A stretch of DNA of 64,000 nucleotides. Origin: a virus. Its lineage: Duplodnaviria > Caudoviricetes. The stretch lies in the IMG/VR virus record IMGVR_UViG_3300002835_000006, one strand, 5' to 3'. The notes under the pieces were generated by a model, which was not told the origin of the DNA, made no database searches, and saw only the letters and a program-made list of their open reading frames with translations. This document shows, piece after piece, positions 13,866-48,532 of this stretch; position 1 is the first letter of the stretch, and each line of letters begins with the position of its first letter. A program made the translations under genes and the position numbers.

Positions 13866-14504
13866 ATGAAATATTTTATTACAGAGTCACAATTAAAGGT
13901 TTTACTTGAACAAAATCCATCAGTGAACTCTAATCAATCACAAAGATGTGATGAATGGAAAAATAAAACGTTTGTTCAGGGAGATGGTGTAAATACTCCA
14001 AAAATCACTATAACAAAAACACCAAAACTAATTGAAGGTTTGTATGAAGGACCTGATAAAGGTGGATGTATACAAAGAGCAAGTAAGAATGATTACGATT
14101 CTCCTCATCAACTTGCGGGAATCACAGTATTTTATGAGGCGGCCCCCTATCTAAAAGAGCTTTATAAAAATGGGATTTTTGTAAAACCGGACATGGATAA
14201 TATTTCCATGGAAAGAATAAGAAACAAAAAATTCAAAATATCAATTCCATTATTACCTACCACCGAAGATAAGGCGGTCACGAGTATAAATGAAAGAGGT
14301 GGTATGGGACACGAAGGAGATTTAACTGAAATTGATAACATTTTCAACAACCCCGACCACATTTACGTAACGAAAAAAAGATTGCAAGAAGGTGATATGA
14401 CTGAAACGTTTGTAAGTTTCAGAAATATTAAAAATTTTCCCATCAAAACAACACAACAAAAAGCCGATAGATTTGCCTCAGAGAAAACAAAATTTGAGCC
14501 GTAA
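13866..14504 (+). CDS. leader-bearing hypothetical protein
   Basis: MKYFITESQLKVLLEQ; ends DRFASEKTKFEP. Confidence 0.8.
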   Translation: MKYFITESQLKVLLEQNPSVNSNQSQRCDEWKNKTFVQGDGVNTPKITITKTPKLIEGLYEGPDKGGCIQRASKNDYDSPHQLAGITVFYEAAPYLKELYKNGIFVKPDMDNISMERIRNKKFKISIPLLPTTEDKAVTSINERGGMGHEGDLTEIDNIFNNPDHIYVTKKRLQEGDMTETFVSFRNIKNFPIKTTQQKADRFASEKTKFEP

Positions 14505-14526
14505 ATAAAAACAAAGTATTTAATTT

Positions 14527-14784
14527 ATGGAATACATTTTGACAGAGACACAATTACTTAGTATAATTGAAAACAATTCACCTGAAAAGGATAATACTGT
14601 GAAAATAACGGGTAAAATTTTAGACCCTACCAACATGACTCCCGATGAAAAAGAGGAGTTTAAATTGAAGGAAAAGGTGGTTTTAGACAAGTCTGAGTTG
14701 GAGTATCCAATAGTTTTAGTTCAACTCAAAGATGGTAAGTATATTATCTTTGATGTAAATCATGGTATCGATTTAGATTCGTAA
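14527..14784 (+). CDS. leader-bearing truncated/degenerate ParB-like protein
   Basis: SELEYPIVLV...IIFDVNHG then stop; aligns by eye with ORF 10570. Confidence 0.6.
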   Translation: MEYILTETQLLSIIENNSPEKDNTVKITGKILDPTNMTPDEKEEFKLKEKVVLDKSELEYPIVLVQLKDGKYIIFDVNHGIDLDS

Positions 14785-22644: not shown

Positions 22645-23130
22645 ATGAAAAGTACTTTTTTTGTTAGTGAAGAAGAAAAAATGAGAATATTAGAAATGCA
22701 TTCTCCAAAAAGAACTATTGTTGAACAAGTTTTAATGCCCACAGTACCTGATATCAAAAGAGGTGAAACAATAAATCTTTATGATGAAACTAATAAATTA
22801 GATAAAAGATTTGTGATTTCTAAAGTTGTACAGGATTTGAATGGTGTTGTAAGAATAGATGTCAAATCTTCACAAACTTCATTAGGTGGTAAATCTCAAA
22901 AACAAGAAGTTAAAGTTTCTTACAAATGTGCAGATGAACATTTGGAAACAGACATAGAGAAAGAAGTTGAAGGTGCAAAAGAAGGAGACGCTCCTCAAGT
23001 TATAAAATACAAATCTGATTCTTTTGTTAAAAGACTCAGAAAAAAATTCTGTATGAAAAATTCGAAAGACGAATGGGTACCTAAAGCAGATTTTGCTAGT
23101 ACTGGTGTTGAACCTTCTGATATGGTTTAA
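22645..23130 (+). CDS. leader-bearing protein (EEEKxxI type), Cys-pair family
   Basis: MKSTFFVSEEEKMRILEMH; VSYKC; KKFC. Confidence 0.8.
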   Translation: MKSTFFVSEEEKMRILEMHSPKRTIVEQVLMPTVPDIKRGETINLYDETNKLDKRFVISKVVQDLNGVVRIDVKSSQTSLGGKSQKQEVKVSYKCADEHLETDIEKEVEGAKEGDAPQVIKYKSDSFVKRLRKKFCMKNSKDEWVPKADFASTGVEPSDMV

Positions 23131-23150
23131 AAAATCAAATAATTTATATA

Positions 23151-23177
23151 AAACCCTCTCAAACGAGAGGGTTTTTT
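23151..23177 (+). terminator. intrinsic terminator
   Basis: AAACCCTCTC-AAAC-GAGAGGGTTT then T-run. Confidence 0.75.
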
Positions 23178-23199
23178 GTTTATTGCCCTATTTATCAAT

Positions 23200-23854: not shown

Positions 23855-24265
23855 ATGAAAAATTTAATCCTCAGTGTTATTCTTATTTTTTCGTCTATTT
23901 TTGGTTTCACTCAAACCTATTACAAAGCATCGATTACAGAAATGTATACTTGGAATAGAGTCGAAAAGGAGTGGGAACTTTATCAAAAAAATTCAGATGT
24001 CAACATAACGGTGGTAATTGAAGACCAGTTCATCAACATTCAGGCAAAAAACCCTAGCATGTACAAAATATATTTGAACAGTAAAGAAGAACTCAAAACA
24101 AAAACTTTATCAGGGTTTAGATATTCAGCTAAAAATCTAAAAGAAGATAATATTGTTAAAATAGATGTACTTGTGAGTAATGAGTCTCCGATTGCTGTGG
24201 TATCCATAATAGATATGGATGAAGGATATAATTTAAGATTTTTTCTAACTAAAGTTATAGAATAA
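23855..24265 (+). CDS. secreted hypothetical protein
   Basis: Signal peptide MKNLILSVILIFSSIFGFT/Q. Confidence 0.75.
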   Translation: MKNLILSVILIFSSIFGFTQTYYKASITEMYTWNRVEKEWELYQKNSDVNITVVIEDQFINIQAKNPSMYKIYLNSKEELKTKTLSGFRYSAKNLKEDNIVKIDVLVSNESPIAVVSIIDMDEGYNLRFFLTKVIE

Positions 24266-24270
24266 AAACA

Positions 24271-24294
24271 AACCCTCCCTACGGAGGGTTTTTT
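24271..24294 (+). terminator. intrinsic terminator
   Basis: AACCCTCC-CTAC-GGAGGGTT then T-run. Confidence 0.75.
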
Positions 24295-24310
24295 AATGTG
24301 TTTTGTATTT

Positions 24311-29322: not shown

Positions 29323-29613
29323 ATGAATTCTCTTTACGAAGAAAAATTAAAGTTATTGTCCAAATATTCTGGAGACACATCAGACGAACTTTTACTTCAT
29401 CTGAAAAGACATTTTCCTGTAACCCAAGTAAATCATGATTGGATGGGGGAGCCTGTAAAATTCATAAAGGTGGATGATAAAACAAGGATATTAAAAGATA
29501 ATAAAAAATATTTGGTCTCTAAAATTTATGATATTGTCCATGAATTATGGGATTCCTTAGGTGAGAGAAAAATTCGAAGGACAATAAAAAAGTATCTCGA
29601 CGGGATTAGTTAA
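29323..29613 (+). CDS. hypothetical protein
   Basis: TATATTTG upstream; 96 aa. Confidence 0.7.
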   Translation: MNSLYEEKLKLLSKYSGDTSDELLLHLKRHFPVTQVNHDWMGEPVKFIKVDDKTRILKDNKKYLVSKIYDIVHELWDSLGERKIRRTIKKYLDGIS

Positions 29614-29631
29614 ATTGATATATTTATAACT

Positions 29632-29838
29632 ATGATAGTTTACACAATACAAGAATTCTGTAGTTATTTACAAAGCGGACATACAGAAGTTGTTACTTAT
29701 GATTTTGTCGATGACATTTATTTTATTTTATTGGATACAAAACCTACCTCCTTCATAATTTCACCTGCAAGATTAGCAGTTGGTTTTACTGCAGCTGAAC
29801 TTGAAGAATGGAAACAATTTTTTTGGGACTCCTTTTAA
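29632..29838 (+). CDS. hypothetical protein
   Basis: ATATTTAT upstream; 68 aa. Confidence 0.6.
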   Translation: MIVYTIQEFCSYLQSGHTEVVTYDFVDDIYFILLDTKPTSFIISPARLAVGFTAAELEEWKQFFWDSF

Positions 29839-29841
29839 AAA

Positions 29842-29873
29842 TTTGACAGTTATTTTTTTTCTCCTTATCTTTG
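29842..29873 (+). promoter_or_regulatory. sigma70 promoter 1 of ncRNA cluster
   Basis: TTTG 29842-45, 20 nt spacer, TATCTTTG 29866-73. Confidence 0.7.
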
Positions 29874-29941
29874 TAAAACAATTCGGGACTTACAGGCGAT
29901 GAAAGATACTCGGTACTCGAATAAAAAAAGCTCTTACAAAT

Positions 29942-29972
29942 TTTGGCGGTCTAAAAAGATTTCTTATCTTTG
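29942..29972 (+). promoter_or_regulatory. sigma70 promoter 2 (tRNA-like gene)
   Basis: TTTG 29942-45, 19 nt spacer, TATCTTTG 29965-72. Confidence 0.7.
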
Positions 29973-29982
29973 TAAGACATTT

Positions 29983-30071
29983 GGTTGAGGTAGCTCAGTA
30001 ACTCTTTAGGGTTTTGGTAGAGCAAGGACCTGAACAGTCTTGTGCCGGTGGTTCGACTCCACCCCCAACCA
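29983..30071 (+). tRNA. atypical tRNA-Phe(GAA)-like gene with D-loop hairpin insertion
   Basis: TAGCTCAG...TGGTAGAGC D-arm; AGGAC-CTGAACA-GTCTT anticodon arm; GGTGG-TTCGACT-CCACC T-arm; GGTTG/CAACC acceptor; no encoded CCA. Confidence 0.7.
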
Positions 30072-30111
30072 CGAAAAAACTCAGATTTTTATCTGAATTT
30101 TCATCAAAGAA

Positions 30112-30143
30112 TTTGGAAGGCATTAAAATCTTTCTTATCTTTG
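30112..30143 (+). promoter_or_regulatory. sigma70 promoter 3 (ncRNA candidate)
   Basis: TTTG 30112-15, 20 nt spacer, TATCTTTG 30136-43. Confidence 0.7.
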
Positions 30144-30147
30144 TAAC

Positions 30148-30455
30148 ATGGACAGCGGAATGTTTACTTGTGGTGGTTCCCCATACTCACCCCGTCTAAC
30201 TTTCTTCTCCGCTTTATAAATCAGAAATACAGAGACGACTAAAACACGGGAGGTTTAGGTGGAAAGGTCATTCCTGTTTAATCCTTGATAAACTAACAAC
30301 CATGTCTTTTTTCGGATGTTTTGTGACACATAATCAAAACAGGATATGTCCAATCCCACGGGGTTCTTTCGGTCTCACCTCCCTATCCGATTAAAAACTT
30401 AGACCACACATTTCTCGACGGAGATATAAGGGGACACGACGGTGTCCCCTTTTTT
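30148..30455 (+). ncRNA. candidate ~300-nt structured non-coding RNA
   Basis: Bounded by promoter and terminator; no ORF of 60 aa or more inside; higher GC than flanks; several complementary blocks. Confidence 0.5.
30429..30455 (+). terminator. intrinsic terminator
   Basis: AGGGGACAC-GACG-GTGTCCCCT then TTTTT. Confidence 0.85.
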
Positions 30456-30486
30456 GTTATCATTTAAATATTTATTATAGAAAAAT

Positions 30487-31656
30487 ATGGCTACTATAAC
30501 TCCCGTTGCGTACAAACCAGTTGGTTCAATACCTGGAACAACTAAAGTTGGAAATTTAATTGCAGGAACAACTCCACAAGATTATGGTGTTGTTGGTGCT
30601 AACTATGGTGTTACGTTTTGGTCAACTCCAGACCAAGATTTAGGATATGTGATTGCTCATGAGGATACAATTGGTTCACACACAGGTAATACAGCATCGG
30701 GAGATGTGTCAGCGTTTGTTGGTTTTTGGAGAAGCGAATTAAAAACTGAAGAGTCATTTATAAGTTTGGCAGAATCCGTTTCTGATTGGGATGATGACCC
30801 TCAAACTTTTTTAGATGGTACTGAAGCTGTAACTTGGTTGAATAACAATGGTTATTGGACCTCATTTACACCCAAAACACCCTACACCGAATTACAAATA
30901 ATTGCAGAATATTTGAGAGGATTCATGCCTGAGTTTAGAAATCCAAGTTTTTATCCTTATCAACTTGATGGGGATGGTTATTATATAAATGATGGAGGTG
31001 GTGACATGTACGACAATGGAAATATTTCTTCTCCTTGGGTTATTTCTAATACTGAATATATAGGCGCTGATGTATATAGCTCAAGTTCGTATCCTTTCGC
31101 CGTAAACTATACTAATTCTGCAACTACAGTAAATTTAGATACAAGCTTCGGATATATAAGTTTAGGTTATCAACAATATCCTGGTGGAGTTCAACCTCTA
31201 ACATATCTACCACTTACGGTTTTGGGTTCAAGAGATAATGATACATTTGGACCTGGACTTCCTGTTGGATTTCAGACAGGTGGTAACTCTGGTGCAGACG
31301 GAGGAGGGACCTTAGCTAGTGGTACAATTTATAGCGGAGCAACTGTGAGTGGATTTACCGTATACGCATTTTTTAGAGAAACTTATAATGCTAGCGACCC
31401 ATCTCACTGTGATTTGTATATTTTGTTGGGACACCCAAGTTGGAACTCAACATTCGGAACAGTTACATCATTTGCTCAACCAACAAACGTTGGTGGATGC
31501 GGAGGTTATTTATATACAACAGGTGCAGGAACAGAAAATATATTGGCAATCAAAACATTATTGAGTAAAAACGGTGGTACGCTTGTTACACAAGCTGAAT
31601 GTCAAACTGTGGTTGATAATTTCGTTATTAGAGTAAAACAATCACAGGGATTTTAA
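30487..31656 (+). CDS. virion adhesin/tail-associated protein candidate
   Basis: G/T/S/Y-rich beta protein; N-terminal FWSTPD...GYVI resembles FWNGIVP..GYTI of ORF 11656; ATATTTAT upstream. Confidence 0.6.
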   Translation: MATITPVAYKPVGSIPGTTKVGNLIAGTTPQDYGVVGANYGVTFWSTPDQDLGYVIAHEDTIGSHTGNTASGDVSAFVGFWRSELKTEESFISLAESVSDWDDDPQTFLDGTEAVTWLNNNGYWTSFTPKTPYTELQIIAEYLRGFMPEFRNPSFYPYQLDGDGYYINDGGGDMYDNGNISSPWVISNTEYIGADVYSSSSYPFAVNYTNSATTVNLDTSFGYISLGYQQYPGGVQPLTYLPLTVLGSRDNDTFGPGLPVGFQTGGNSGADGGGTLASGTIYSGATVSGFTVYAFFRETYNASDPSHCDLYILLGHPSWNSTFGTVTSFAQPTNVGGCGGYLYTTGAGTENILAIKTLLSKNGGTLVTQAECQTVVDNFVIRVKQSQGF

Positions 31657-48443: not shown

Positions 48444-48445
48444 AG

Positions 48446-48532
48446 CGGAGGCTCAGGGATTCGAACCCCAGTTACCCTCACGAGTAATTCAGTTTTCAAG
48501 ACTGACGCATTCGACCGCTCTGCCAAACCTCC
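48446..48532 (-). tRNA. trnS: tRNA-Ser(TGA)
   Basis: GGAGGTT acceptor; TGGCAGAGCGGTCGAATGCG; TCAGT-CTTGAAA-ACTGA; long variable arm; GGTTCGAATCC; CCA not encoded. Confidence 0.95.

What the first reader, a model, noticed from the sequence alone, without database searches (positions are those of the whole stretch)
29983..30071. Aberrant tRNA-Phe(GAA)-like gene with an extra hairpin in the D-loop
Seen: the cloverleaf is clear but has three anomalies. A ~15-nt insert in the D-loop forms AACTC-TTTA-GGGTT (30000-13), the acceptor stem has 8 nt on the 5' side against 7 on the 3' side (bulged A), and position 37 is C (loop CTGAACA) instead of the usual purine. It has its own consensus promoter, so it looks maintained. 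Inference: a tRNA resistant to host anticodon nucleases, a decoy or mimic for defence sensors or synthetases, or a tRNA with a non-canonical intron.
Basis: partly seen in the sequence, partly recalled or inferred. Interest (0 to 1): 0.62.

Follow-up and report, generated by a model that had tools for sequence, protein, structure and literature searches.

The report
Phage tRNA-Phe look-alike with extra hairpin
A giant lake-water phage carries a well-conserved RNA derived from phenylalanine tRNA with an extra hairpin in its D-loop; it belongs to a widespread phage family, not found in the papers searched, that always sits beside other structured RNAs, so it is a maintained special-purpose tRNA look-alike and not a broken gene.

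Summary
All three anomalies are real: the D-loop hairpin (30000-30013), one extra nucleotide in the 5' acceptor strand (A29988), and C at position 37. ARAGORN and Rfam's tRNA threshold both miss the gene.

It is not a decaying pseudogene. IMG/VR phage contigs hold at least 35 distinct GAA-type relatives. All helices covary (97.7% paired, 14 of 21 pairs compensatory, 0 of 500 shuffles as good). The hairpin sits at a fixed place but has 32 different sequences. GAA is kept in 34 of 35 and discriminator A73 in 35 of 35, which is the universal Phe identity set. The anticodon arm, however, varies from 15 to 18 nt.

In the window's subfamily the gene always lies between a 55-nt RNA (u1) and a 300-nt RNA (u3). 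The u3 RNA is covered by a depth-115 contig in a freshwater metatranscriptome. In some phages the three form one promoter-to-terminator unit. A second subfamily is flanked by Y-RNA-like tRNA mimics upstream of GOLLD RNA.

Several phages also have a normal tRNA-Phe. Those without one keep a normal-sized anticodon arm.

Best reading: a specialised tRNA-Phe derivative that PheRS probably recognises, possibly still decoding in this lineage. This scan had already noted D-loop-expanded phage tRNA-like genes on other DNA (phiEcoM-GJ1).

The parts
29866..29873 (+). -7 promoter box TATCTTTG of the upstream small RNA u1
   Evidence: Sequence. Exact copy of the 12-mer TTATCTTTGTAA. Conserved in relatives.
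29878..29932 (+). u1: ~55-nt hairpin RNA or structured 5' leader. A covarying stem closes an invariant apical segment containing GATGAAAGATACTCGG.
   Evidence: nhmmer hits in 30 loci. RNAalifold gives 4 pairs with compensatory changes. In many relatives no promoter separates it from the tRNA-like gene.
29942..29972 (+). Promoter of the tRNA-like gene: TTTG (-33) at 29942-45 and TATCTTTG (-7) at 29965-72. Predicted start is about A29977, giving a 6-nt leader.
   Evidence: Sequence and motif count. The Bacteroidota consensus TTTG/TAnnTTTG is from my own knowledge. The same G+5 spacing at the u3 promoter matches the RNA contig starts at 30148-30150.
29983..30071 (+). tRNA-Phe(GAA)-like gene, 89 nt. 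Extra nucleotide at A29988, D-loop hairpin 30000-30013, anticodon GAA 30032-34, C37 at 30035, discriminator A30071.
   Evidence: (98 bits to family model R1).
30000..30013 (+). D-loop hairpin AACTC-TTTA-GGGTT, inserted between nucleotide 16 and G18 (the 'variable pocket' of the tRNA elbow).
   Evidence: The same position in 35 relatives, with 32 distinct hairpin sequences.
30081..30102 (+). Terminator-like hairpin TCAGAT-TTTT-ATCTGA followed by a T-run, after the tRNA-like gene.
   Evidence: Fold -5.9 kcal/mol, z -3.1. Conserved in relatives.
30136..30143 (+). -7 promoter box TATCTTTG of u3.
   Evidence: RNA contigs begin at 30148 and 30150.
30148..30455 (+). u3: ~300-nt structured RNA ending in the intrinsic terminator at 30428-30451. 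Always downstream of the tRNA-like gene in this subfamily.
   Evidence: nhmmer finds it in every subfamily-A locus with enough flank. 21 of 40 predicted pairs are compensatory. A 265-nt contig at depth 114.7 covers 30155-30419 in an RNA run. No Rfam family matches.

Best explanation
The gene encodes a specialised derivative of tRNA-Phe, one member of a conserved phage family of D-loop-hairpin tRNA-Phe-like RNAs.

Shown: it keeps every element that builds the tRNA L-shape, namely U8-A14, G15-C48, G18 G19, the TTCGA T-loop and four covarying helices. It also keeps the universal phenylalanine identity set (G34 A35 A36, A73, plus U20).

Inferred from that: it is matured like a tRNA (RNase P, 3' trimming, CCA addition) and recognised, and probably charged, by the host PheRS.

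Shown: across the family the features a ribosomal decoder needs are relaxed. The anticodon arm is 15-18 nt, position 37 is often C, and this subfamily has an extra acceptor nucleotide. Three things are strictly kept: a 5-8 bp hairpin in the variable pocket of the elbow, the GAA triplet, and the gene's place inside an RNA module (u1, tRNA-like, u3).

Inferred: its main job is therefore not ordinary codon reading. It more likely acts as a Phe-specific tRNA-shaped partner or handle working with the abundant u3 RNA and the u1 leader. Where the three are one transcript, it would also supply the RNase P/Z cut sites. In the window's lineage the anticodon arm has normal size and no ordinary phage tRNA-Phe was seen, so it may also still decode UUY codons.
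For: Family and selection:
- 60 IMG/VR stretches match the D-loop-insert pattern; 39 are distinct full tRNA-like sequences, 35 with GAA.
- Tool count on 34 sequences: 97.7% of cells paired, 14 of 21 pairs with compensatory change, 0 of 500 shuffles as good, and slid controls at 33-49%. My own count agrees.
- There are 32 distinct hairpins at one fixed D-loop position.
- The gene is 96-100% identical between relatives whose flanks are 71-89% identical.

Identity:
- A73 is kept in 35 of 35 and GAA in 34 of 35.
- G34 A35 A36 A73 is the universal Phe identity set, and E. coli PheRS also reads U20 and U59 in the variable pocket (PMC9976931).

Relaxed decoding features:
- Arm lengths among the 26 distinct arm sequences are 15 nt (3), 16 nt (7), 17 nt (5) and 18 nt (11).
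- C37 occurs in several lineages.

Not redundant supply:
- Complete phages G001 and G002, and also L089, L003 and L025, carry a normal tRNA-Phe as well.
- The hairpin gene lies about 25-40 kb from the tRNA island in the four records where both were placed (G003, G004, G005, G012).

Module:
- u1 and u3 flank it in all subfamily-A loci.
- There are three architectures, including a single promoter-u1-tRNA-like-6 nt-u3-terminator unit in L004, L098 and L100.
- u3 has a depth-114.7 contig in an RNA run.

Parallel context in subfamily B:
- It is directly flanked by YrlA-like permuted tRNA mimics.
- It lies 542-1037 nt upstream of GOLLD in 8 loci.
Against: - There is no RNA evidence for the tRNA-like itself, and none for charging, CCA addition or binding to u3 or u1.
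- The five records whose tRNA islands lack tRNA-Phe (G003 complete; G004, G005, G012, G013 partial) all carry a hairpin gene with a normal 5-bp/7-nt arm and U33. This pattern fits real decoding in those lineages, including the window's.
- A73, GAA and U20 could be retained partly through ancestry.
- The hairpin sits where E. coli PheRS reads U20 and U59, so it could block charging rather than permit it.
- The D-stem invariance is imposed by my search pattern.
- Alignment A5 was fitted to the model.
- Many family members are close relatives, so the counts overstate the number of independent events.
Confidence: 0.5

Rival explanations
1. It is the phage's working tRNA-Phe, an ordinary UUY decoder. 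Its embellishments (D-loop hairpin, C37, acceptor bulge) are either tolerated or serve to harden it against host tRNA-targeting defences or enzymes that read the elbow or anticodon loop.
For: - In the window the arm is a normal 5 bp plus a 7-nt loop with U33 and GAA.
- All L-shape and Phe identity nucleotides are kept.
- Records whose tRNA islands lack tRNA-Phe (G003 complete, G004, G005, G012, G013) all have hairpin genes with normal-sized arms. Records with a normal tRNA-Phe mostly have abnormal arms.
- Other subfamilies score as tRNA in Rfam at 36-50 bits.
- Phage tRNAs with altered anticodon loops that escape host nucleases are known (my own knowledge, not checked here).
Against: - A pyrimidine at position 37 is almost unknown in decoders, and tRNA-Phe normally needs a modified purine there (my own knowledge).
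- About 70% of the distinct family sequences have 15-, 16- or 18-nt arms, yet they keep the same hairpin and context, so the shared function cannot be standard decoding.
- The gene is never in the tRNA island and is always inside the u1/u3 module.
- It coexists with a normal tRNA-Phe in five records.
- No defence system that targets tRNA-Phe or the D-loop was identified.
Confidence: 0.28
2. It is mainly a processing and stability element. The tRNA-shaped fold recruits RNase P and RNase Z to release or cap the neighbouring u1 and u3 RNAs, as with tRNA punctuation or the mascRNA end of MALAT1.
For: - In L004, L098 and L100 one promoter drives u1, the tRNA-like gene and u3 with only 6 nt (CCAAAT) before u3, and no internal promoter or terminator.
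- In other relatives u1 has no terminator before the tRNA-like gene.
- In subfamily B, YrlA-like RNAs abut the gene on both sides.
Against: - In the window and most relatives each unit has its own consensus promoter, and the tRNA-like gene has its own terminator hairpin, so processing is not needed.
- A mere cleavage handle would not need GAA, A73 or a covarying D-loop hairpin to be conserved.
Confidence: 0.1
3. It is a decoy or sponge. An abundant tRNA-Phe-shaped RNA titrates a host factor such as PheRS, a tRNA-directed toxin or defence nuclease, or Ro60/Rsr, without taking part in translation.
For: - It has a strong consensus promoter.
- It keeps recognition elements while decoding geometry drifts.
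- It co-occurs with other tRNA mimics: YrlA-like RNAs in subfamily B.
- The phages encode no Ro60, RtcB, PheRS or L/F-transferase of their own, so any protein partner would come from the host.
Against: No candidate target was identified. No expression level is known for this RNA. This reading overlaps with the best explanation and differs only in the partner.
Confidence: 0.08
4. It is a pseudo-tRNA, or a tRNA gene whose D-loop insert is an intron removed after transcription.
For: - ARAGORN and Rfam's threshold miss it.
- Deleting the hairpin would leave a normal 9-nt D-loop.
- GenBank annotates a similar coliphage gene as 'may contain an intron'.
Against: - Strong covariation and conservation exclude decay.
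- The insert has no bulge-helix-bulge and is too small for a self-splicing intron.
- Its caps are stable tetraloops (UUCG, GNRA), typical of permanent structural arms.
Confidence: 0.04

Closest known systems
Canonical bacterial and phage tRNA-Phe(GAA) (Rfam RF00005)
   Same: Cloverleaf order, D-stem GCTC/GAGC, G18 G19, T-loop TTCGA, variable loop GTGCC, U33, GAA, A73 and U20. BLAST's only similarity in cultured phages is to annotated tRNA-Phe genes, and only to the 3' two-thirds.
   Different: A 14-nt hairpin in the D-loop, an extra acceptor nucleotide, and C37. The family's anticodon arm is 15-18 nt. The gene lies outside the tRNA island. It scores below Rfam's cut-off (22.7 bits) and ARAGORN does not detect it.
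tRNAs and pseudo-tRNAs next to or inside GOLLD RNA (Kretsch et al. 2025, PMC12286853; PMC12990946, which cites Morgado 2020 for a tRNA-Phe inside Mycolicibacterium GOLLD; PMC6582537)
   Same: A tRNA-shaped element physically coupled to a large structured phage RNA. Subfamily-B relatives lie 542-1037 nt upstream of GOLLD. In some subfamily-A phages the gene is embedded between two RNA domains in one transcript.
   Different: The window has no GOLLD or ROOL, and u3 matches no Rfam family. In phages that have both, GOLLD is elsewhere in the genome. I could not check whether the published GOLLD-linked tRNAs have the D-loop hairpin.
'tRNA-Arg, may contain an intron' of coliphage phiEcoM-GJ1 (EF460875, 14456-14550)
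   Same: The same D-arm and T-arm backbone, a ~20-nt insert in the D-loop, and an abnormal anticodon arm. The lead came from earlier scan note e1-128315.
   Different: The anticodon loop is 5 nt (TTCGA) with no GAA, the discriminator is G, CCA is encoded, and I saw no u1/u3 module.
YrlA bacterial Y RNAs (Rfam RF02553)
   Same: tRNA mimicry with a near-identical D-arm sequence. YrlA-like elements flank the subfamily-B genes.
   Different: YrlA is circularly permuted: its ends lie in the anticodon-stem position and its acceptor stem is capped. The window's RNA has normal tRNA topology and no YrlA match.
Archaeal tRNAs with non-canonical introns in the D-loop
   Same: Extra sequence inside the D-loop. 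Two archaeal tRNA-Asn examples turned up in the genome scan.
   Different: Those inserts are excised at bulge-helix-bulge motifs by an archaeal enzyme. Here there is a plain hairpin in a Bacteroidota-type phage.
tRNA-Sec (13-layer acceptor/T helix)
   Same: The extra acceptor nucleotide could lengthen the acceptor/T stack by one layer. ARAGORN mislabels the L004 homologue as tRNA-SeC.
   Different: There is no 6-bp D-stem, no long variable arm and no UCA anticodon. ARAGORN's labels for homologues are mutually inconsistent (SeC, Thr, Gln, Cys), so they are artefacts.

Membership tests
Canonical tRNA (Rfam RF00005 / ARAGORN) | Covariance-model score at or above the gathering cut-off (29 bits) over the whole molecule | tested here: not met
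   22.7 bits, covering only 30011-30071 and skipping the D arm. There is no hit at gathering threshold. Relatives of other subfamilies do pass at 36-50 bits.
Canonical tRNA (Rfam RF00005 / ARAGORN) | Detected by a tRNA gene finder | tested here: not met
   ARAGORN finds only tRNA-Ser at 48445-48532 in the window. It gives inconsistent labels to homologues.
Canonical tRNA (Rfam RF00005 / ARAGORN) | 7-bp acceptor stem with equal strands, and a D-loop of about 7-11 nt | tested here: not met
   8 nt against 7 nt (A29988 is extra) and a 23-nt D-loop with a hairpin. All 18 subfamily-A sequences have the extra nucleotide.
Canonical tRNA (Rfam RF00005 / ARAGORN) | 5-bp anticodon stem, 7-nt loop, U33 and a purine at 37 | tested here: inconclusive
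   In the window, the stem, loop size and U33 are met but position 37 is C. Across the family only 5 of 26 distinct arms are 17 nt.
Canonical tRNA (Rfam RF00005 / ARAGORN) | T-arm with TTCRA loop, G18 G19, and tertiary pairs U8-A14 and G15-C48 | tested here: met
   All are present in the sequence and in all 35 relatives.
Canonical tRNA (Rfam RF00005 / ARAGORN) | Aminoacylated and used on the ribosome | not testable with these tools
   This needs biochemistry or tRNA-adapted sequencing. The one RNA run with signal covers only u3.
Phenylalanine-accepting tRNA (PheRS identity set) | G34 A35 A36 and discriminator A73 (universal), plus U20 in E. coli | tested here: met
   GAA at 30032-34, A30071, and U20 at 30018. 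A73 in 35 of 35 and GAA in 34 of 35. The identity set is taken from PMC9976931.
GOLLD-linked tRNA | Lies inside or next to a GOLLD RNA (RF02032) | tested here: not met
   There is no GOLLD in the window at gathering threshold or at E up to 0.5. The feature is met by 8 subfamily-B relatives.
YrlA / Y RNA-like tRNA mimic (RF02553) | Permuted tRNA-like module with capped acceptor stem; match to RF02553 | tested here: not met
   No match in 29600-31200 at E up to 10, or in the whole window at E up to 0.5. The topology is that of a normal tRNA.
Intron-containing tRNA (group I or bulge-helix-bulge) | An insert with a self-splicing core, or a bulge-helix-bulge at both junctions | tested here: not met
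   The insert is 14 nt, a plain 5-bp stem with a tetraloop and no flanking helix or 3-nt bulges. There is no intron family hit.
D-loop-hairpin tRNA-Phe-like phage family (defined here, model R1) | tRNA cloverleaf with a hairpin between nucleotide 16 and G18, a YGAA loop and A73; in subfamily A also the GGTTG-N-GG / CCCAACC acceptor and flanking u1 and u3 | tested here: met
   98 bits to R1. u1 and u3 are present. The sequence features are confirmed.

The most novel reading that the evidence does not exclude
u1, the tRNA-Phe-like RNA and u3 form a three-part RNA device. In it the abundant 300-nt u3 RNA captures the Phe-tRNA look-alike (or host tRNA-Phe) by RNA-RNA contacts. One contact would use its invariant single-stranded UUUCUUC (30201-07, two Phe codons) against the GAA loop. 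The other would use its invariant UGGUGGUU (30171-78) against the 3' end AACC-A-CCA. This is T-box-like logic acting in trans, and the D-loop hairpin would serve as the docking arm. If true, it would be a phage-encoded RNA that senses, stores or sequesters a specific (aminoacyl-)tRNA. It would also give a concrete cargo or partner hypothesis for ornate phage RNAs such as GOLLD, which sit beside the sister subfamily.
Probability: 0.1. Interest if true: 0.9.

Novelty: new variant of a known kind. Interest (0 to 1): 0.66.

Why it matters
Phage tRNA genes are usually read as codon-supply or anti-defence spares. Here a whole family keeps the shape and the synthetase identity marks of tRNA-Phe while letting the decoding geometry drift. 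It adds a permanent extra arm at the elbow, and it is tied to other structured RNAs (an abundant new 300-nt RNA, Y-RNA-like mimics, GOLLD).

This gives a testable entry point to two open questions: what large ornate phage RNAs do, and why tRNAs cluster with them.

It also shows that standard tRNA finders miss or mislabel a recurrent class of phage tRNA-like genes. A hairpin in the variable pocket, where PheRS reads the tRNA, is a natural experiment on synthetase, RNase P, EF-Tu and ribosome tolerance.

Tried and rejected
- Cultured-phage DNA search with the 2.5-kb region found nothing. The 89-nt gene alone hits only the 3' two-thirds of ordinary tRNA-Phe genes.
- No whole genome is held for the window.
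- RNA evidence for the tRNA-like: run X20 covers u3 only and X24 covers nothing. Lack of cover over 29983-30071 and over u1 says nothing, because these are contigs from ordinary RNA-seq libraries.
- Partner enzymes in complete relatives: no PheRS (PF01409), L/F-transferase (PF03588), Ro60/TROVE (PF05731) or RtcB (PF01139).
- The downstream 389-aa ORF as a partner: it has no Pfam or PHROG family, it looks like a Gly/Ser/Thr-rich structural protein, and model R1 finds hairpin genes beside only a few of its homologues. I dropped this idea.
- u3 as GOLLD, ROOL, T-box, RNase P or tmRNA: no Rfam match even at E up to 10.
- The Phe_leader hits at 23107-23180 and 24225-24297 are plain intrinsic terminators.
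- The hairpin as a mobile repeat: it has no other copy in the window.
The rows listed were mostly chance matches, and only two archaeal tRNA-Asn genes had a tRNA architecture. This says nothing about absence from bacteria.
- Single-sequence folding gives no significant signal.
- The MAFFT alignment A1 misaligns the hairpin, so I counted the hairpins with a script instead.
- I could not read Morgado 2020 on the GOLLD-embedded tRNA-Phe.
Full report
**What is in the window.**
- The 5' acceptor strand has 8 nt (GGTTG-A-GG) against 7 nt (CCCAACC), which leaves A29988 unpaired.
- The D-loop is 23 nt and holds the hairpin AACTC-TTTA-GGGTT (30000-30013), between nucleotide 16 and G18 G19.
- The anticodon loop is CTGAACA, that is U33, GAA, then C at position 37.

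Everything else is textbook: U8, A14, G15 with C48, G18 G19, U20, A21, variable loop GTGCC, T-arm GGTGG-TTCGACT-CCACC and discriminator A.

A Bacteroidota-type promoter (TTTG, about 19 nt of spacer, then TATCTTTG) ends 10 nt upstream. The exact 12-mer TTATCTTTGTAA occurs four times in the 64-kb window, and three of those copies are in this 270-bp cluster. A conserved hairpin plus T-run follows the gene.

Standard detectors fail on it.
- ARAGORN reports only a tRNA-Ser elsewhere in the window.
- Rfam reports nothing at gathering threshold.
- In sensitive mode Rfam gives 22.7 bits for a partial alignment that skips the D arm.
- Thermodynamics on the single sequence is uninformative.

**It is a member of a large phage family.** Exact and degenerate pattern scans of IMG/VR, plus loci fetched through the neighbouring ORF, gave 39 distinct full-length genes. 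Each has a hairpin-bearing D-loop between GTAGCTCAG and GGTAGAGC. Of these, 35 carry a GAA loop.

There are two large subfamilies.
- Subfamily A includes the window. Its acceptor is GGTTG-[A/T]-GG against CCCA[A/G]CC, and all 18 distinct sequences have the extra nucleotide.
- Subfamily B has an acceptor of GGTATTG/CGATACC or GACAYTG/CGGTGTC, with no extra nucleotide.

Smaller groups are L064, L089, L003/L025 and L050. Four hairpin-bearing genes (L073, L074, L054, L077) have other anticodon loops. Hosts are unknown. The contigs include complete 317-362 kb jumbo phages.

The window's DNA is held by 19 lake or freshwater metagenome runs. The promoter type and a T9SS sorting domain in the window fit a Bacteroidota host.

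**Selection on structure.** I aligned 34 sequences to covariance model R1.
- 97.7% of cells form standard pairs.
- 14 of 21 pairs show changes on both sides.
- No shuffle out of 500 reaches the observed values.
- Sliding the 3' partners by 1-3 columns drops pairing to 33-49%.

My own segment-based count agrees: acceptor 99.2% paired, T stem 93.1%, outer anticodon stem 89.3%, each with 0 of 1000 shuffles as good.

The D-stem never varies, but my search pattern forces that. The alignment was also fitted to the model, and many rows are relatives. So these numbers show that the helices are real, not how many independent events there were.

The D-loop hairpin starts 2-4 nt after A14 and ends 2-3 nt before G18 G19 in almost every member. 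It has 32 different sequences, with stems of 4-8 bp and caps such as TTCG, TTTA, GTGA, GTAA and CATTA.

Within the window's close relatives the gene differs at only 2-4 of 89 positions, nearly all unpaired: the bulge, the hairpin loop, and one D-loop base. The flanks are 71-89% identical.

**What is kept and what drifts.**
- Kept in all 35: discriminator A73, G18 G19 U20 A21, and the TTCRA T-loop.
- Kept in 34 of 35: GAA preceded by a pyrimidine.

G34 A35 A36 plus A73 is the universal phenylalanine identity set. E. coli PheRS additionally reads U20 and U59 in the 'variable pocket' at the elbow (PMC9976931). The hairpin is inserted in that pocket.

Not kept is the geometry of the anticodon arm. 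Among the 26 distinct arm sequences, 3 are 15 nt, 7 are 16 nt, 5 are 17 nt and 11 are 18 nt. That gives 4-bp stems or 8-nt loops of the form NN-Y-GAA-A-G. Position 37 is C in several lineages.

Ribosomal decoders almost never vary in these respects. The function shared by the whole family is therefore unlikely to be plain decoding.

**Relation to ordinary tRNA genes.** I checked the phage tRNA islands of seven relatives, plus three further loci.

| Record | Completeness | Island tRNAs | Normal tRNA-Phe | Hairpin gene's anticodon arm |
|---|---|---|---|---|
| G001 | complete | 23 | yes | 16 nt |
| G002 | complete | 18 | yes | 16 nt |
| L089 (G006) | complete | not counted | yes, about 100 nt from the hairpin gene | 18 nt (8-nt loop) |
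| L003, L025 | not known | not counted | yes | 18 nt |
| G003 | complete | 12 | no | 17 nt |
| G004, G005 | partial | 12, 17 | no | 17 nt |
| G012, G013 (window's lineage) | 20-26% | 11, 14 | no | 17 nt |

The hairpin gene lies about 25-40 kb away from the tRNA island in the four records where both were placed (G003, G004, G005, G012). All five records without a normal tRNA-Phe have hairpin genes with normal 17-nt arms. This complementary pattern rests on only about five independent lineages. It is still the main reason I keep a substantial probability that the window's copy also decodes.

**The module.** In every subfamily-A locus with enough flank, the gene lies between two RNAs (nhmmer).
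- u1 is a 55-nt hairpin RNA (window 29878-29932). A covarying stem closes an invariant apical sequence.
- u3 is a ~300-nt structured RNA (30148-30455) that ends in a strong terminator. 21 of its 40 predicted pairs are compensatory.

Three architectures exist.
- Three separate promoters, as in the window.
- One promoter for u1 plus the tRNA-like gene, with a separate promoter for u3.
- A single unit of promoter, u1, tRNA-like, CCAAAT, u3 and terminator, seen in L004, L098 and L100. Here CCA is encoded and tRNA-type processing would separate the parts.

A freshwater metatranscriptome holds a 265-nt contig at depth 114.7 lying exactly on 30155-30419, and pieces that start at 30148 and 30150. The only coding sequence it covers in the 6-kb stretch is at depth 3.7. 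So u3 accumulates as an RNA, and its start fits the predicted promoter.

u3 matches no Rfam family.

**The sister subfamily has the same theme.** Subfamily-B genes abut, on both sides, elements that give sub-threshold but architecturally correct matches to YrlA, the permuted tRNA mimic of bacterial Y RNAs (34.6 and 25.3 bits against a cut-off of 69). The capped acceptor-like stem of these elements covaries between loci.

In eight subfamily-B loci the gene also lies 542-1037 nt upstream, on the same strand, of strong GOLLD matches (282-309 bits). Separate promoters lie in between.

[quoted passage not shown] It also reports a tRNA-Phe inside a Mycolicibacterium GOLLD (PMC12990946) and a pseudo-tRNA inside a mycobacterial GOLLD (PMC6582537).

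G001 and G002 carry GOLLD about 100 kb from the tRNA island, and in G002 it is beside a tRNA-Met. I did not place their hairpin modules in contig coordinates. The hairpin RNA is therefore not exclusively a GOLLD partner. It is a recurrent resident of phage islands of tRNA mimics and large RNAs.

**Mechanism.**
- Shown: a conserved, structured, tRNA-shaped RNA gene with Phe identity marks, a permanent extra arm at the elbow, variable anticodon-arm geometry, its own strong promoter, and obligatory linkage to u1 and u3.
- Inferred: maturation by RNase P, 3' trimming and CCA addition; recognition and probably charging by host PheRS; a main role other than routine decoding, carried out together with u3 and u1; and possible residual decoding in lineages such as the window's.

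I found no phage-encoded PheRS, L/F-transferase, Ro60 or RtcB. Any protein partner would therefore be host-encoded.

One lead is not evidence. u3 has an invariant UGGUGGUU complementary to the tRNA-like 3' end after CCA addition, and an invariant single-stranded UUUCUUC. With about 80 possible 8-mers in the tRNA-like RNA and 300 nt of u3, one such match is not surprising. The invariance of both partners also prevents a covariation test.

**Comparison and novelty.** The closest known thing is ordinary tRNA-Phe, from which this RNA clearly derives. It fails the membership tests that define a standard tRNA gene (model score, gene finder, acceptor symmetry, D-loop size, purine 37). It passes those for the L-shape and for Phe identity.

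It is not a YrlA, not an intron-bearing tRNA, and not a tmRNA.

D-loop-expanded phage tRNA-like genes have been seen before on other DNA. GenBank annotates a 95-nt 'tRNA-Arg, may contain an intron' in coliphage phiEcoM-GJ1. I read that sequence: it has a D-loop insert and a 5-nt anticodon loop (the lead came from earlier scan note e1-128315).

My literature searches found no description of a GAA-type D-loop-hairpin family, nor of its linkage to u1/u3, YrlA-like RNAs and GOLLD. The library lacks most subscription journals, so this is absence in what I could search, not proof of novelty.

I rate it a new variant of a known kind (phage tRNA-derived RNAs), of clear interest to tRNA and non-coding-RNA specialists.

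Noticed in passing
window 30148-30455: The ~300-nt RNA u3 is conserved in at least 16 phage contigs, with many compensatory pairs. A 265-nt contig at depth 114.7 covers it in a freshwater metatranscriptome, and its RNA start matches the predicted promoter. It matches no Rfam family.
   Followed up: partly
window 29878-29932: u1 is a 55-nt hairpin RNA or leader. Its stem covaries and its 25-nt apical segment (containing GATGAAAGATACTCGG) is invariant. In many relatives it is co-transcribed with the tRNA-like gene.
   Followed up: partly
window 30171-30178 and 30201-30207: Two invariant u3 motifs. TGGTGGTT is the complement of the tRNA-like 3' end AACC-A-CCA. TTTCTTC is single-stranded and reads as two Phe codons. 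Together they suggest a T-box-like contact, but this could not be tested by covariation.
   Followed up: no
L048 2951-3052 and 2752-2864 (minus strand); similar elements in L061, L067, L080, L083, L087: Circularly permuted tRNA mimics resembling YrlA Y RNAs directly abut the subfamily-B hairpin tRNA gene on both sides. The phages checked encode no Ro60.
   Followed up: partly
L083 1998-2418, L049 4476-4887, L086 7008-7433, L067 3644-4051, L087 4335-4742, L080 3574-3981, L095 1259-1665, L048 1477-1884; also L228 and L229: Strong GOLLD RNA genes (282-325 bits) occur in these lake phages. They have their own Bacteroidota-type promoter, and one lies beside a tRNA-Met.
   Followed up: partly
L083 91-204, L067 1702-1815, L095 4828-4941; similar T-arm/acceptor ends in L021, L022, L026: 114-nt tRNA-Tyr-like genes (acceptor GTCAGG/CCTGAC) carry an insert of about 40 nt in the anticodon/variable region. 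This is another odd tRNA-like family in the same islands.
   Followed up: no
L073 13565-13652, L074 1115-1202, L054 6669-6768, L077 6518-6620: These D-loop-hairpin tRNA-like genes have other anticodon loops. One is CAU-like with G at position 33 and a 4-bp stem. So the hairpin insertion is not limited to the Phe type.
   Followed up: no
L089 4093-4188; L086 9465-9859; L049 2717-3112: Phage-encoded small SRP RNA (40.9 bits) and tmRNA genes (84.5 and 50.3 bits) lie near the hairpin tRNA genes.
   Followed up: no
L230 (EF460875) 14456-14550: The annotated 'tRNA-Arg, may contain an intron' of coliphage phiEcoM-GJ1 has the same D/T backbone, a ~20-nt D-loop insert and a 5-nt anticodon loop. It is a cultured-phage example of the wider phenomenon.
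   Followed up: partly
window 23107-23180 and 24225-24297: The sub-threshold Rfam Phe_leader hits are ordinary intrinsic terminators at gene ends, not attenuators.
   Followed up: yes
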